This document shows positions 29,530 to 64,000 of a DNA stretch of 64,000 nucleotides, one piece after another. The position numbers and the translations under genes were made by a program. The notes beneath the pieces are model-generated. The model was not told where the DNA came from and ran no database searches. It saw only the letters and a program-made list of their open reading frames with translations. The DNA is taken from positions 4,833 through 68,832 of IMG/VR virus record IMGVR_UViG_3300005543_000001, one strand, 5' to 3'. The DNA is from a virus (Duplodnaviria; Caudoviricetes). The number at the start of each line of letters is the position of its first letter. The stretch's first letter is position 1.

Positions 29530-29606
29530 TGGTAGCGGCGGCGCGAGTCGAACGCGCTTTCTCCGGGTTATGAGCCCGACGGGATGCCCGGTTCCCCACA
29601 GCCGCA
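29530..29606 (-). tRNA. tRNA-Met(CAT), initiator-like, CCA encoded
   Basis: D stem GGGA/TCCC, anticodon arm TCGGG-CTCATAA-CCCGG, T arm GCGCG-TTCGACT-CGCGC, 1:72 mismatch; one extra bulged T in acceptor stem. Confidence 0.85.
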
Positions 29607-60963: not shown

Positions 60964-61065
60964 CTGCTCGCGCGGAGCCAGGTAAGAGAGCTGAGCGACA
61001 CCATGATCATCGACTCGAGCCGTTGGCGAGTCTGCAGACACAACATCATCAGGGGGGGAAGACAC

Positions 61066-61764
61066 GTGGCCAAATCGATAGAGACGACAGACGCGCCCAA
61101 GCTCAAGACGCCCAAGCAAGGCACATCGAAGCAGTCGGCGGCGAGCGCATCGCCGGAGCAGCGCATCACCATCGCCGCGCCGGATATCCGGGTCGCCGAG
61201 TTTCGGATCGTGGGATCCGCGCCCTACGTGCAGAACCGCTTCTGGAACAAGGGCGCGATGATCGCCGCGCAGCAAGAGGGCGGCACCAACAAGAAGAAGG
61301 CCCGCGCGCCGAAGGACTTCGAGGCGCTGTTCGAGAATGCCAAGCACAAGGCCCCCGAGGGCTGGTGCGGCATCCCGGCGGCGAGCTTCCGCGCGGCGAT
61401 GATCTCGGCCTGCCGCCTGGTGGGCTTTCAGATGACGCGCGCCAAGCTGAGCCTGTTCGTGCTCGCCGACGGCCTGGACGAGGACGGCTCGCCCATCGTG
61501 AAGATCGAGGGCACGCCCGAGCAGCACACGGCGCACGTGCGCAATGAAACGGGCGTGGTCGACATCCGCTCGCGTCCGATGTGGCGCGAGTGGGCTTGCA
61601 ACTTGCGCGTCCGCTACGACGCCGATCAGTTCACCGCGGTCGATGTGGCGAACCTACTCATGCGCGCCGGCATGCAGGTCGGCGTCGGCGAGGGGCGGCC
61701 CGACAGCAAGAAGTCTCTCACGGGCATGGGCTGGGGAACCTTCAGCATCGACGGGGAGGGCTGA
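61066..61764 (+). CDS. RAMP/Cas7-like RNA-binding protein
   Basis: EFRIVGSAPYVQN, GIPAASFRAAMISAC, C-terminal Gly-rich loop AGMQVGVGEGRP...GMGWGTF. Confidence 0.7.
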   Translation: MAKSIETTDAPKLKTPKQGTSKQSAASASPEQRITIAAPDIRVAEFRIVGSAPYVQNRFWNKGAMIAAQQEGGTNKKKARAPKDFEALFENAKHKAPEGWCGIPAASFRAAMISACRLVGFQMTRAKLSLFVLADGLDEDGSPIVKIEGTPEQHTAHVRNETGVVDIRSRPMWREWACNLRVRYDADQFTAVDVANLLMRAGMQVGVGEGRPDSKKSLTGMGWGTFSIDGEG

Positions 61765-61765
61765 G

Positions 61766-62596
61766 ATGCCAGATCTCAGTCAGTCCGCCATTGACGAGCT
61801 CGGCGAGCTCGACCGCGACGGCAAGCTCGCACCCGTGCACGTCCTCGAGGTCGCGCGCAACCCGGGCAGCGCGCTCCATGCGCACTTCAATTGGGATGAT
61901 GCGTTGGCCGCGCAAGCCTACCGGATCGAGCAAGCCGATCGGCTCATCTGCAAGGTGCGCGTGCGCATCCTGCCGCGCGAGGACGACAAGCCGCGCACCA
62001 TCCGCGCGCTCGTGCAGTCGGCGTCGAACGAGTACGGCCGCGAGGCAAACTGCCCGTGGTTGAAGCCGGCGGCCCGCAGTGCGTTCTCCAGCGCGGCCGC
62101 GCCCGCCGTGGTTCCAGACGCACCCGCGCCCGCGCCGAAGCCCGCACCAGCTCCTCAACCTGACGAGGGCGAGGAAGAGGATGATGGGGACGGCGATGAT
62201 GATGACGACGACGATGAGGACGAGCGCGACGACGACGACGAAGACACCACGCAGCCCGATGTGCCGGCGGTCCGCCATCGTGCGAGCAGCATGACCATCA
62301 AGATCGACGCGCCCGGCGCGCAGCAGTTGCTTCACCAGGCGCTTGCCGAGCTCGCGGTGGTTCGCCGACGTTACGCGCACCTCGTCGAGCTGCGGCCTGT
62401 GTTCGAACAGTTCGATCGACTCGTGAAGCCGGAGGCCGTCGACCGCGCCGCGGATAGTCGGCTCCTCGCGACCGTCGAGCTCGCCCGCGAATACGAGCGC
62501 GCCGGCATGGACAGATTCACCGCGGCGGAACGCGCAGCTCGAGCGCACGCCGTCGATCGCGGGGAGGTACTCGCGGCGCTGCGGGCCACAGGCTGA
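61766..62596 (+). CDS. RAMP-associated partner protein with Pro-rich and poly-Asp linker
   Basis: VLEVARNPGSALHAHFNWDD..AAQAYRIEQA; ELAVVRRRYAHLVEL. Confidence 0.7.
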   Translation: MPDLSQSAIDELGELDRDGKLAPVHVLEVARNPGSALHAHFNWDDALAAQAYRIEQADRLICKVRVRILPREDDKPRTIRALVQSASNEYGREANCPWLKPAARSAFSSAAAPAVVPDAPAPAPKPAPAPQPDEGEEEDDGDGDDDDDDDEDERDDDDEDTTQPDVPAVRHRASSMTIKIDAPGAQQLLHQALAELAVVRRRYAHLVELRPVFEQFDRLVKPEAVDRAADSRLLATVELAREYERAGMDRFTAAERAARAHAVDRGEVLAALRATG

Positions 62597-62598
62597 TG

Positions 62599-63301
62599 GG
62601 CAGGCACGGCAGCGCGAGGTTCCGCAAGGCCCGGCCGGGCACGGCTGGCAACGCTAGGCAGGGCTCGGCCGGGCACGGCATGGATCGGCGGCGCAGGCGA
62701 GGAAGCGCATGCCATCGCTAGGTGCGGCAGGGCTCGGATCGGCAGGTGGCGCGAGGTTCGGACCGTCAGGGCACCGATGGGCACGGCAGGCAAGGCGACG
62801 CACGGATTGGCAGCGAGTGGATGGGCGCGGCAGGCACGGCAAGGCGAGGCATGGGCATGGGTAGGTTGGGCGAGGTCAGGCAGGCGGCGCTAGGCAGCGC
62901 AGGGATCGACACGGCGGCGCACGGCTTGGTCGGGCAGGCATGGCAGGGATTGGTACGGCGAGGCCGGGCAGGCTGGGTCGAACGGGGCGGGGCAGGTTTT
63001 GCCTCGCTAGGCGAGGCGGGGCCCGGCTCGGCCGGCGGGGCTGGGCATGCCAGCGCAAGGCAAGGCAGGCTCGGAGTGGTGAGGCACGGCCGGGCACGGC
63101 TAGGCGCGGCACGGCAGGCACGGACATCGCGGGGCAGCGCTGGGCCTCGAAGGGCACGGCTGCGCAGGCGCAGCAACGCAAGCCTGGGCTACGCATCGCA
63201 GGGCACGGCAGGCAGGGCGTGGCGCGGCTAGCCCGAGCATGGCGAGGTCTGGCACGGCCGGCGAGGCACGGTGAGGTTCGGCAAGACCGGGCGCGGCAGG
63301 C
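62599..63301 (+). ncRNA. Array of 16 NN-GGY pentamer units; putative guide RNA array
   Basis: Strict 5-nt period (GGC/GGT/GGA/CGC plus 2 variable nt); units of 4-10 pentamers separated by a 4-nt N-GGY step, mostly GGC-A-GGC. Confidence 0.85.
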
Positions 63302-63338
63302 GTGGGGGAACTGGGCTTGAAGTGATGGGGAGGGAACG

Positions 63339-63641
63339 ATGGGAGCGGCGAAGCAAATGGAACCGAACACGCTGGTGGTGACGCTGACACAGGAGCAGCT
63401 GCACTCGCTCGTCAAGGATGCCGTCTGCGAGGCGCTCAGCGCACAGAAGCATCAGCCGGAGGGCTACCTCGACACCGAGCAGGCGGCGTCGTACCTGGGG
63501 ACGACGGTGAGCAGCCTGCGCACGGCCGTCGCTCGCGGAAAGCTCACGCCAGATCATCGCGGGCAGCGCGGTGGCGGCATGAAGGGCAATCGCTTCTCGC
63601 GGCAGACGCTCGACGCGTTCTGCAAGCGCGTAGTGGGATGA
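63339..63641 (+). CDS. Excisionase-like HTH protein
   Basis: YLDTEQAASYLGTTVSSLRTAVARGKL; directly upstream of integrase-like gene. Confidence 0.8.
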   Translation: MGAAKQMEPNTLVVTLTQEQLHSLVKDAVCEALSAQKHQPEGYLDTEQAASYLGTTVSSLRTAVARGKLTPDHRGQRGGGMKGNRFSRQTLDAFCKRVVG

Positions 63642-63652
63642 CAGGAGTACCC

Positions 63653-64000
63653 GTGTCGAAGAAAGCCAAACCCAAGAGTAGTGACGGCCTGAAGCTTCTC
63701 GGCCGCGAGGCGGGCAAGCTCAAGTACGAAGCTACCCTCCGCAAGAAGCAGGGTGGCAAGCTCATTGTCGACACGACCGCCATCATCCTGGCCGATTCGA
63801 AGGCCGAGGCGCTTATCGAGAAAGCGCGGCGACTCGAGGAAGCCGTGCAGACGAAGCTCGGTAACCGCATCACTGATCGCATCGCGCTTGGCCCCGCGTG
63901 CGACGCCTTCCTTGCCACACTTCGCAAGGGCACCCGCGTCCCCTACGGCTCCCACCTCAAGAAGTACCGCGCCGCCCTCGGTGACGATCGCCCGCTCGAC
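63653..64000 (+). CDS. Probable tyrosine integrase, N-terminal part (truncated by window)
   Basis: AGGAG RBS and GTG; basic arm-like N-terminus then helical domain; follows xis; catalytic residues not in window. Confidence 0.55.
   Translation, partial: MSKKAKPKSSDGLKLLGREAGKLKYEATLRKKQGGKLIVDTTAIILADSKAEALIEKARRLEEAVQTKLGNRITDRIALGPACDAFLATLRKGTRVPYGSHLKKYRAALGDDRPLD

What the first reader, a model, noticed from the sequence alone, without database searches (positions are those of the whole stretch)
63071..63115. Array unit 12 decodes to the serine-recombinase active site VAYVRVST[D/E]
Seen: NN pairs are TC GT GA AC CG AC TA GC AC. Their reverse complement with one skipped base after each pair is GTn GCn TAn GTn CGn GTn TCn ACn GAn = V-A-Y-V-R-V-S-T-D/E. 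Known: YxRVST is the catalytic motif of resolvases, invertases and large serine integrases. Inference: this unit is antisense to the coding strand of a serine recombinase gene of a rival element, and the skipped base is the codon wobble position, so synonymous escape would be neutralised. It is the best internal evidence for the 2-paired/1-skipped code. The integrase-like gene here shows no such motif in its N-terminal part.
Basis: partly seen in the sequence, partly recalled or inferred. Interest (0 to 1): 0.93.

Follow-up and report, generated by a model that had tools for sequence, protein, structure and literature searches.

The report
Phage VIPR guide aimed at serine recombinases
One unit of a five-base repeat array in this soil phage is a guide RNA of the recently described VIPR system, and it spells the active-site start of serine recombinase genes that other phages carry, so it is a convincing new example of a known kind of inter-virus weapon.

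Summary
Window 63071-63115 is nine NN+GGN pentamers (tc gt ga ac cg ac ta gc ac) between two AGGC punctuation marks. Read antisense with one base skipped per pair, it gives V-A-Y-V-R-V-S-T-D/E.

The array (62601-63301, 16 units) is a staggered guide-RNA array of a VIPR system, described in 2026 preprints. It follows a Cas7-like Vipr gene (61003-61764) and a conserved partner gene (61766-62596) in a 68.8-kb temperate myovirus from a rhizosphere metagenome.

- **Targets:** the decoded pattern has 7 exact hits in IMG/VR and 58 in species genomes. Five of the 7 viral hits were scanned and all carry a PF00239 domain; the other two have the same kind of N-terminus. 51 of 52 scannable genome hits carry PF00239. 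Four same-format comparison patterns gave 0 hits.
- **Self-targeting:** the phage has no match to its own guide and uses a tyrosine integrase.
- **Sibling allele:** a sibling phage carries the same guide with ga changed to ct, which switches the serine codon from TCN to AGY. Its longer form has an exact 22/22 hit in a resolvase gene.
- **Breadth:** only 2 of 30 sampled Polyangiaceae serine recombinase genes match at 80% or more.

The actual rival element and the host are unknown, and there are no RNA data. The published SUSP1 VIPR already targets a satellite recombinase just upstream of its catalytic serine, so this is a new member of a known kind. The scan has reported VIPR arrays on other DNA, not on this genome.

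The parts
61003..61764 (+). vipr gene (253 aa), a Cas7-like RAMP protein
   Evidence: The only PDB sequence match is the SUSP1 Vipr protein 36pp_D: E 0.005 with the single sequence and 4.7e-06 over nearly its full length with a family profile. The AF2 model has pLDDT 80.7. The listed Foldseek PDB hits are all Csm3/Cas7 subunits or type III/VII CRISPR effector complexes. It is 31% identical to Mattes gp52, which lies beside a mycobacteriophage array. 74 of 83 loci held at that point, nearly all fetched through Vipr homologues, carry GGY-NN arrays.
61766..62596 (+). Candidate vap accessory gene (276 aa) with an acidic low-complexity centre
   Evidence: It starts 2 nt after the vipr stop codon. 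Its N-terminal 77 aa are 35% identical (E 3e-12) to Mattes gp53, the gene that follows the mycobacteriophage Vipr. It matches phrog_15946. There is no informative Pfam or PDB hit, so its function is unknown.
62601..63301 (+). Staggered vrRNA array: 16 units of 4-10 NN+GGY pentamers, each closed by a 4-nt step (mostly AGGC)
   Evidence: Parsed and periodicity measured. The same punctuation is family-wide: 311 of 355 four-nt steps are AGGC, and the triplets are GGC 74% and GGT 11%. This fits the 'staggered arrays with 1-nt overlap' of the preprint's fig. S18 legend. No Rfam family matches.
63067..63119 (+). Unit 12 with both AGGC punctuation marks. The guide NN are tc gt ga ac cg ac ta gc ac (63071-63115). 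The target strand reads GTnGCnTAnGTnCGnGTnTCnACnGA, which is VAYVRVST[D/E].
   Evidence: for the sequence. for the targets. for the sibling allele.
63339..63641 (+). HTH_17 / excisionase-like gene (context)
   Evidence: Weak match to Pfam HTH_17 (E 4.2e-05, 24.2 bits, below the 27-bit gathering cut-off), plus PHROG MerR-like and excisionase families.
63638..64000 (+). N-terminal 121 codons of the phage's own integrase, a tyrosine recombinase (428 aa; continues past the window end round the circular genome)
   Evidence: The ORF was joined across the 60-nt terminal repeat. The C-terminal part matches PF00589 at 4.8e-13. The genome has no PF00239 gene.

Best explanation
Unit 12 is one guide of a phage VIPR system. 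The vipr-vap operon is probably transcribed through the array (inferred: a 4-nt gap, same strand, no terminator examined). The transcript would be cut at the AGGC punctuation into about 49-nt vrRNAs (inferred from the preprint's staggered-array description). Vipr protomers would bind each GGY and present the following NN (shown for SUSP1, inferred here).

The nine NN of unit 12 would pair with codon positions 1 and 2 of nine consecutive codons, VAYVRVST[D/E], on the coding strand of a serine recombinase gene, and skip each wobble base. These codons encode the first beta-strand and the catalytic serine, at the 5' end of the gene. Binding would therefore block transcription of the recombinase, and most silent mutations would not help the target escape.

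The likely victims are competing mobile elements that depend on such a recombinase: prophages, satellites or other integrative elements. The phage itself is exempt because it integrates with a tyrosine recombinase.
For: **The system is VIPR**
- Vipr membership by profile (E 4.7e-06 to SUSP1 Vipr) and by fold (Cas7/Csm3).
- A conserved partner gene follows it.
- Arrays accompany Vipr homologues in 74 of 83 loci, 137 of 138 on the same strand.
- AGGC punctuation is family-wide.

**The target**
- IMG/VR has 7 exact hits, all in frame at recombinase-type N-termini; the 5 scanned carry PF00239 starting at the hit.
- Species genomes have 58 exact hits, and 51 of the 52 that could be scanned carry PF00239.
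- The 65 hits are 57 distinct 27-mers with free wobble bases.
- In 151 Polyangiaceae genomes, 14 have a match with at most 1 mismatch, against 1 for the reversed control.
- Same-format comparison patterns gave 0 hits four times.
- The chance of a YxRVS[ST] decode is 7e-4 or less.

**No self-targeting:**. The phage's own integrase is PF00589.

**Sibling allele**
- Sibling phage L162:5604-5658 carries the same unit with one NN changed, ga to ct. This turns TCN-Ser into AGY-Ser. It also has two extra pentamers.
- The 9-NN form of that allele hits AGY-coded VAYVRVST in IMG/VR, and 2 of 3 hits carry PF00239.
- The 11-NN form has one exact 22/22 metagenome hit at position 1 of a PF00239 domain.

Against: - There is no RNA evidence that this unit is expressed or processed.
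- The 1-nt skip rule was shown experimentally only for type II VIPR, and this Vipr is a distant relative.
- Host and co-resident elements are unknown, so no specific rival is identified.
- None of the other 14 units tested matched the five virus records that carry exact unit-12 targets.
- Among 452 guides from 80 related IMG/VR loci, no other one decodes to RVS[TS]. A third close strain has an unrelated guide in this slot and a fourth lacks the slot. The guide is therefore lineage-specific and dispensable.
- Only 2 of 30 Polyangiaceae serine recombinases match at 15/18 or better.
- Any pattern that encodes VAYVRVSTD must hit such genes, so the hit lists show specificity of the address, not by themselves selection for it.
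Confidence: 0.8

Rival explanations
1. Unit 12 is a real VIPR guide, but its natural target is a chromosomal or regulatory serine recombinase of the host, for example an invertase that switches a receptor or defence locus, or the conserved decayed resolvase-like gene of Sorangium. It would then manipulate the host and not a rival mobile element.
For: Eight Sorangium species carry an exact match in one conserved 194-aa gene that keeps only half of the PF00239 domain. The matching genes are mostly small resolvase/invertase-type proteins of about 200-260 aa. The phage's TerL is 64% identical to a match in one Myxococcota genome.
Against: No Vipr homologue was found in five target-bearing genomes (four Sorangium/Polyangiaceae, one Mycobacterium) or in the Myxococcota genome with the TerL match, so the host assignment is weak. 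Exact targets also lie inside viral records. One example is the provirus G001, where the gene matches the PHROG integrase and invertase families and sits about 2 kb from the terminase gene. The published natural VIPR targets are mainly competing phages and satellites.
Confidence: 0.13
2. The match is a coincidence. Unit 12 is a guide, or a degenerate unit, with another target or none, and the VAYVRVST reading arose by chance among about 30 decoded strings.
For: With a look-elsewhere factor of about 100 motifs, the shuffle probability of 7e-4 rises to the order of a few percent. The guide is absent from most relatives.
Against: All nine codons, not only the six-residue core, occur together in natural genes, as 57 distinct 27-mers. 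Unit 12 is the best-preserved unit of the array. The only NN difference in the sibling phage is a double substitution that keeps serine. Among single-NN replacements, 1 in 135 would do exactly this, or 2 in 135 if the Arg switch is counted. The sibling's extended guide has an exact 22-base natural match in a resolvase gene.
Confidence: 0.05
3. The pentamer array is not a guide array at all. It would instead be a protein-binding or structural repeat, such as a TRAP-like RNA-binding site with 5-nt spacing, G-quadruplex-forming DNA, or a packaging or replication signal.
For: This was my first impression from the 5-nt period and the G-rich strand. There is no Rfam match.
Against: The adjacent gene is a Vipr homologue. 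The array co-occurs and is co-oriented with that gene in 74 of 83 loci. The NN are hypervariable between relatives while GGY and AGGC are kept. One unit has a specific wobble-phased natural target. All of this matches the published VIPR anatomy.
Confidence: 0.02

Closest known systems
VIPR systems (Vipr + vrRNA + Vap); reference type II systems of Escherichia phage SUSP1 and a Pseudomonas fulva prophage (bioRxiv 10.64898/2026.04.26.720920 and 10.64898/2026.04.26.720927)
   Same: It is phage-borne. It has a small Cas7-like protein with a partner gene, and co-oriented arrays of GGY+NN pentamers. The target reading uses two paired bases and one skipped base, in phase with codons. There is no self-targeting.
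   Different: The Vipr is only remotely similar to the SUSP1 protein (profile E 4.7e-06). The guides have no 3' tail or pseudoknot and are packed head to tail with a 4-nt AGGC step, which is the 'staggered' architecture mentioned only in a supplementary legend. There are 16 guides in one 700-nt block. The partner gene is unrelated to anything solved. The host is an unknown high-GC soil bacterium. The VIPR type could not be assigned because the classification tables are not held.
SUSP1 vrRNA4 against the F5 satellite excision recombinase (bioRxiv 10.64898/2026.10.15.759431)
   Same: The guide footprint lies on active-site codons of a recombinase that has a catalytic serine. It is wobble-aligned, so silent mutations do not give escape. 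The predicted effect is to immobilise a competitor.
   Different: The SUSP1 footprint is 6 codons, residues 79-84, just upstream of the serine. Here it is 9 codons at the N-terminal edge of the catalytic domain (model positions 1-3) and includes the catalytic Ser-Thr itself. The victim here is unidentified. Sibling phages here carry TCN and AGY alleles of the serine position, which I did not find in the sections of that paper that I read or searched.
Cluster F mycobacteriophages (Cheoctovirus, e.g. Mattes gp52-gp53 and the unannotated array upstream)
   Same: They have a homologous vipr-vap pair (31% and 35% identity) and the same AGGC-punctuated GGC-NN array, near the excisionase gene.
   Different: The array lies upstream of vipr, not downstream. 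The guides are unrelated. The host is Mycobacterium. In Donkeykong the array is annotated as a protein-coding gene (gp48).
Class 1 CRISPR-Cas interference complexes (Cas7 backbone on crRNA)
   Same: The RAMP fold is shared, one protomer binds per fixed step of guide RNA, and the thumb flips out bases periodically.
   Different: There is no repeat-spacer array, no cas1/cas2 or other cas genes, a 5-nt step, and non-contiguous pairing. This is not a CRISPR system.

Membership tests
VIPR system | Vipr protein: a minimal RAMP (RRM core, G-loop, thumb) related to Cas7 | tested here: met
   A profile of 27 homologues hits the SUSP1 Vipr protein (36pp_D) at E 4.7e-06 over profile positions 40-210 and chain residues 3-180, including the C-terminal G-x-G-x-x-RP loop. 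It is the only hit with the single sequence. The AF2 model (pLDDT 80.7) has only Csm3/Cas7 subunits or type III/VII CRISPR effector complexes among its listed Foldseek hits, best E about 3e-5.
VIPR system | vrRNA genes made of four or more tandem GGY/NN (YNNGG) pentamers, next to vipr and on the same strand | tested here: met
   About 125 pentamers lie in 62601-63301, starting 4 nt after the partner gene. 74 of 83 loci held at that point, nearly all fetched through Vipr homologues, have such arrays, 137 of 138 on the same strand as the gene. GGY makes up 84% of the triplets.
VIPR system | A vap accessory gene beside vipr | tested here: inconclusive
   A gene follows vipr at a 2-nt distance, and its N-terminal domain is conserved next to the mycobacteriophage Vipr (E 3e-12). 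I could not relate it to vap1-6, and it has no Pfam or PDB assignment.
VIPR system | Guides match natural DNA under the 1-nt skip rule, mostly in coding sequence with the skip on the wobble base | tested here: met
   Met for unit 12 only. It has 65 exact matches: 51 of 52 scannable genome hits and the 5 viral hits scanned carry PF00239, and the skip positions are free. Units 2, 3 and 15 gave no exact hit in IMG/VR.
VIPR system | No self-targeting of the source genome | tested here: met
   The whole 68.8-kb genome has no match with up to 2 mismatches. The best own-genome scores of all units lie within the shuffle controls.
VIPR system | vrRNAs are expressed, processed and co-purify with Vipr, and the RNP binds dsDNA and represses transcription | not testable with these tools
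   Only DNA contigs of metagenomes hold this sequence.
VIPR staggered array architecture (fig. S18 of the preprint) | Adjacent vrRNAs share a 1-nt overlap, so the end of one marks the start of the next, with no tail between them | tested here: met
   Each unit ends in a 4-nt step where a 5-nt step is expected (AGGC in 11 of 16 junctions here and in 311 of 355 across relatives). There is no conserved tail or hairpin between units. The figure itself is not held; only its legend could be read.
Serine recombinases (PF00239), as the class of the target | The match lies on the N-terminal beta-strand and the catalytic serine (YxRVST) of a Resolvase domain | tested here: met
   The PF00239 domain starts at model position 1-3 at the match in 5 of 5 viral records tested and in 51 of 52 genome hits.
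CRISPR array | Identical direct repeats of about 23-50 nt that alternate with unique spacers, with cas genes nearby | tested here: not met
   TRF finds only weak 10-29-nt periods. The constant element is 3 nt long. Apart from the lone RAMP, no cas-like gene was found among the neighbouring ORFs scanned.

The most novel reading that the evidence does not exclude
Sibling phages carry two alleles of the same guide that differ only by the dinucleotide facing the catalytic serine codon, TCN in one and AGY in the other. This would be the trace of an arms race fought at the level of an amino-acid motif. Targets can escape a wobble-proof guide only by jumping between the two serine codon families, and the phage follows. 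VIPR guides would then act as protein-motif-level addresses. The guide slot also turns over like a cassette (replaced in one strain, deleted in another) without any known acquisition machinery.
Probability: 0.4. Interest if true: 0.7.

Novelty: new member of a known kind. Interest (0 to 1): 0.5.

Why it matters
It is an independent example, from a distant Vipr clade and an unrelated soil phage, of the two central claims of the 2026 VIPR preprints. The second is that recombinases of competitors are preferred victims.

It adds three testable points:
- **The catalytic serine is covered.** A guide can sit directly on the catalytic Ser-Thr codons, at the promoter-proximal edge of the catalytic domain.
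- **Both serine codon families are covered.** The one synonymous escape route left open, the two serine codon families, is covered by a second allele in a sibling phage.
- **Guide slots turn over as cassettes.** In tail-less staggered arrays, guide slots are gained, lost and replaced as 44-49-nt cassettes.

It also shows that Cluster F mycobacteriophages, which can be grown and manipulated in the laboratory, carry the same kind of system.

Tried and rejected
- **First idea, dropped.** I first took the array for a TRAP-like RNA-binding site with 5-nt spacing, G-quadruplex DNA or a packaging signal. I dropped this once the neighbouring gene proved to be a Vipr homologue.
- **Rfam.** The only hit was a sub-threshold COG3860 match (17.7 bits, E 0.61), which is chance.
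- **Related loci through the HTH protein.** Nothing confirmed.
- **Relatives of the window genome.** Not available for a virus record.
- **Host search.**
  - No Vipr match in four Sorangium/Polyangiaceae genomes and one Mycobacterium genome that carry exact targets.
  - The best TerL match among 401 Myxococcota genomes is 64% identical, in G370, which has no Vipr.
  - The phage shares no meaningful similarity with the target-bearing proviruses G001 and G002.
  - The host remains unknown.
- **Other guides.**
  - Units 1-5, 7, 8, 10, 11, 13-16 and part of unit 6 do not match records G001-G005 above shuffle controls.
  - Units 2, 3 and 15 have no exact hit in IMG/VR.
  - Searches at 80% match were not possible with the collection scans.
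- **Recurrence of the recombinase guide.** It is absent from 452 unique guides of 80 related loci and from four relatives with 69-76% Vipr identity.
- **Contigs of P0017, P0125 and P0124.** No DNA could be read.
- **RNA.** No RNA holder is listed, so expression could not be examined.
- **Supplementary tables of the preprint.** They are not held, so the VIPR type was not assigned.

Full report
**1. The observation**

Window 63071-63115 reads tcGGA gtGGT gaGGC acGGC cgGGC acGGC taGGC gcGGC acGGC. A dynamic-programming parse of 62560-63345 shows 16 runs of 4-10 in-phase NN+GGC pentamers. Each run is closed by a 4-nt step: AGGC eleven times, otherwise AGGT, CGGC or TGGC. It is the cleanest unit, since all nine triplets are GGN. 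GGC recurs 40 times at lag 5 against 0-13 at lags 1-4 and 2 at lag 6, and nothing else in the 64-kb window shows this periodicity.

**2. Where it sits**

The window is positions 4833-68832 of a 68,832-nt IMG/VR virus record with a 60-nt terminal repeat, so the genome is a circle of 68,772 nt. It encodes a large terminase, portal, protease, major head protein, tail sheath, tape measure and a primase/helicase. It is therefore a temperate myovirus. It comes from rhizosphere metagenomes.

The array follows two genes on the same strand: 61003-61764 (253 aa) and 61766-62596 (276 aa). It precedes an HTH/excisionase-like gene (63339-63641) and an integrase that runs over the window end. Joined across the repeat, the integrase is 428 aa and its C-terminal part is PF00589, a tyrosine recombinase.

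**3. What the system is**

My first idea was a TRAP-like or G-rich structural repeat. A blastn search then showed the same kind of array in Cluster F mycobacteriophages. Notes from this scan on other genomes pointed to VIPR. I read the three preprints and tested the definition here.

VIPR consists of a small phage-borne RAMP protein (Vipr), usually an accessory gene (vap), and vrRNAs made of alternating GGY and NN. The NN pair with a dsDNA target in which every third base is skipped. Natural targets are mostly coding sequences with the skip on the wobble base. The cryo-EM work shows that the thumb displaces GGY on the guide and one base on the target.

Results for this locus:
- **Sequence.** The 253-aa protein has a single PDB sequence hit, the SUSP1 Vipr protein (E 0.005). 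A profile of 27 homologues raises this to E 4.7e-06 over almost the whole chain.
- **Fold.** Its AlphaFold model (pLDDT 80.7) has only Csm3/Cas7 subunits or type III/VII CRISPR effector complexes among its listed Foldseek hits.
- **Family.** The family is large, with 6634 proteins at E of 0.001 or below. Of the 83 loci held at that point, nearly all fetched through Vipr homologues, 74 carry GGY-NN arrays, and 137 of 138 arrays lie on the strand of the gene.
- **Punctuation.** Within those arrays there are 3179 five-nt steps and 355 four-nt steps, 311 of them AGGC. That is about one per nine pentamers. It fits the 'staggered arrays', in which neighbouring vrRNAs overlap by 1 nt, as described in the legend of fig. 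S18.
- **Partner gene.** The gene after vipr shares its N-terminal domain with the gene after the mycobacteriophage Vipr (E 3e-12), so the two-gene module is conserved. I could not equate it with a named vap.

**4. What unit 12 addresses**

The 18-base pattern has 7 exact hits in IMG/VR. All are in frame at the N-terminus of proteins that continue as typical serine recombinases. In the five records tested, a PF00239 domain starts at the hit.

In 185,579 species genomes it has 58 exact hits. Of the 52 with at least 60 codons of open frame, 51 carry PF00239. Several of the six shorter ones are recognisable truncated recombinases.

The 65 hits are 57 different 27-mers. All four bases occur at the skipped positions, and only C or T occurs after TA, so none is a stop codon.

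Controls of the same format gave no hit in IMG/VR: the pattern read backwards and units 2, 3 and 15. In a sample of 151 Polyangiaceae genomes, 14 have a match with at most one mismatch, against 1 for the reversed pattern.

The hits are spread over many lineages. They include eight Sorangium species, several Polyangiaceae and other Myxococcota MAGs, about seven Mycobacterium/Mycolicibacterium genomes and about eleven Acidimicrobiia genomes. The proteins are both small resolvase/invertase-type and large serine recombinases. One exact target lies in a 66-kb provirus, about 2 kb from its terminase gene, and matches the PHROG integrase and invertase families.

**5. Is the decoding chance?**

A pattern that encodes VAYVRVSTD must hit such genes. 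The hit lists therefore show how specific the address is, not that the guide was selected for it. Three arguments bear on selection.

- **Shuffling.** Shuffling the array's own NN among the units gives any YxRVS[ST] decode on either strand in 7e-4 of trials, or 1.4e-4 with family-wide NN frequencies. With a generous look-elsewhere factor this leaves at most a few percent, before counting the three further codons that also fit natural genes.
- **The sibling allele.** A sibling phage (ENA contig of 65,935 nt, same 90%-identity Vipr cluster) has the homologous unit at L162:5604-5658 as tc gt CT ac cg ac ta gc ac gc ac. Its only NN change is a double substitution opposite the serine codon, turning TCn into AGn. 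The decode stays V-A-Y-V-R-V-S-T-D/E if the target uses AGY. Of the 135 possible single-NN replacements in a nine-NN unit, one does this, or two if the Arg CGN/AGR switch is counted.
- **Natural matches of the sibling allele.** This allele has 3 exact IMG/VR hits, all AGC or AGT, and two carry PF00239. The sibling's 10-nt extension adds 'V-A' upstream. The resulting 22-base pattern has one exact match in the metagenome collection, at position 1 of a PF00239 domain (E 1.2e-40) with serine coded by AGC.

I therefore rate coincidence at about 5%.

One caveat applies to the arms-race reading. By the preprint's criterion of at least 80% NN match, each allele would still 'hit' the other codon family (16/18 and 20/22). 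Whether the switch matters functionally is open.

**6. Limits of the interpretation**

- The guide is not a universal address for serine recombinases. Of 30 PF00239 genes from 41 Polyangiaceae genomes, only two match at 15/18 or better (both IGYVRVST[D/E]), or three if either allele is counted.
- It is not conserved beyond this lineage. None of 452 unique guides from 80 related loci, and none in four relatives with 69-76% Vipr identity, decodes to RVS[TS].
- Among phages whose Vipr falls in the same 90%-identity cluster, the slot is dynamic. Three contigs from other samples keep units 11 and 13 but have an unrelated ten-NN guide between them. A fourth variant lacks 63063-63106 altogether. Guides thus behave as 44-49-nt cassettes, by a mechanism that is not known.
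- The other units gave no match to the five records that carry unit-12 targets, so no single rival element emerges.
- The host is unknown. The best lead is a TerL match of 64% identity in one Myxococcota genome that has no Vipr.
- No RNA data exist for this sequence.

**7. Mechanism proposed**

- **Shown here:** the anatomy, the protein family, the address and its specificity, the absence of self-targets and the allele pair.
- **Taken from the preprints:** Vipr filaments on GGY, NN pairing with a one-base skip, and transcriptional silencing on either strand without a PAM.
- **Inferred:** co-transcription with vipr-vap, processing at AGGC, and silencing of a competitor's recombinase gene. The target lies on the first codons of the catalytic domain, near the 5' end of the gene, which is both the most constrained and a promoter-proximal site.

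The phage is exempt because its own integrase is a tyrosine recombinase and its genome has neither a PF00239 gene nor a near match to the pattern.

**8. Comparison with what is known, and novelty**

The closest precedent is SUSP1 vrRNA4. [quoted passage not shown] The present guide is a second, independent case in a distant Vipr clade with the staggered, tail-less array architecture, and its footprint covers the catalytic serine itself.

This is a new member of a known kind. The TCN/AGY allele pair and the cassette-like turnover of guide slots are the parts I did not find in the sections of the three preprints that I read or searched. This scan has reported VIPR arrays on other genomes, but none on this one.

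Noticed in passing
L002:2440-2700 (Mycobacterium phage Mattes) and L001:2460-2810 (Donkeykong): Cluster F mycobacteriophages (Cheoctovirus) carry an AGGC-punctuated GGC-NN array upstream of a vipr-vap pair (Mattes gp52/gp53), a few genes before the excisionase. In Donkeykong the array is annotated as the protein gene gp48, and in Mattes it is unannotated. The main text of the VIPR discovery preprint does not mention mycobacteriophages.
   Followed up: partly
window 63063-63106 and 63211-63259; L203:2433-2482; L162:5379-5423: Guide slots turn over as cassettes among phages whose Vipr falls in the same 90%-identity cluster. One variant lacks unit 12 (44 nt) and unit 15 (49 nt). Another has unrelated guides in both slots. 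The sibling L162 lacks unit 5. No acquisition genes are evident.
   Followed up: partly
window 63263-63297 and L169:5111-5155: The last unit of the array (ga ac ga tc aa cg gc) shares its first six NN with the last unit of a relative whose Vipr is only 71% identical, while all other guides differ. This may be a conserved target or a conserved 3' end of the array.
   Followed up: no
window 62160-62250: The acidic Asp/Glu-rich low-complexity stretch of the partner protein varies in length between strains and attracts many unrelated metagenome contigs.
   Followed up: no
L107:4041-4622 and the other Sorangium loci (L103, L127, L135, L140, L148, L156, L157): Eight Sorangium species share a conserved 194-aa gene that starts VAYVRVSTDAACASA. 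It keeps only the first half of the resolvase domain (33 bits) and lacks the usual Gln after the serine. It looks like a decayed or repurposed resolvase, and it is an exact match to unit 12.
   Followed up: partly
window 62699-62743 versus L162:5281-5325: Unit 3 differs between the siblings by at to ac. In the antisense reading this turns an Ile/Met codon into Val ([DE][DE]LAY[IM][IM]L to [DE][DE]LAY[IM]VL). A conservative change of this kind would fit a coding target on that strand. No exact target was found in IMG/VR.
   Followed up: partly
window 29534-29605: A single tRNA-Met gene lies just beside the large terminase gene.
   Followed up: no
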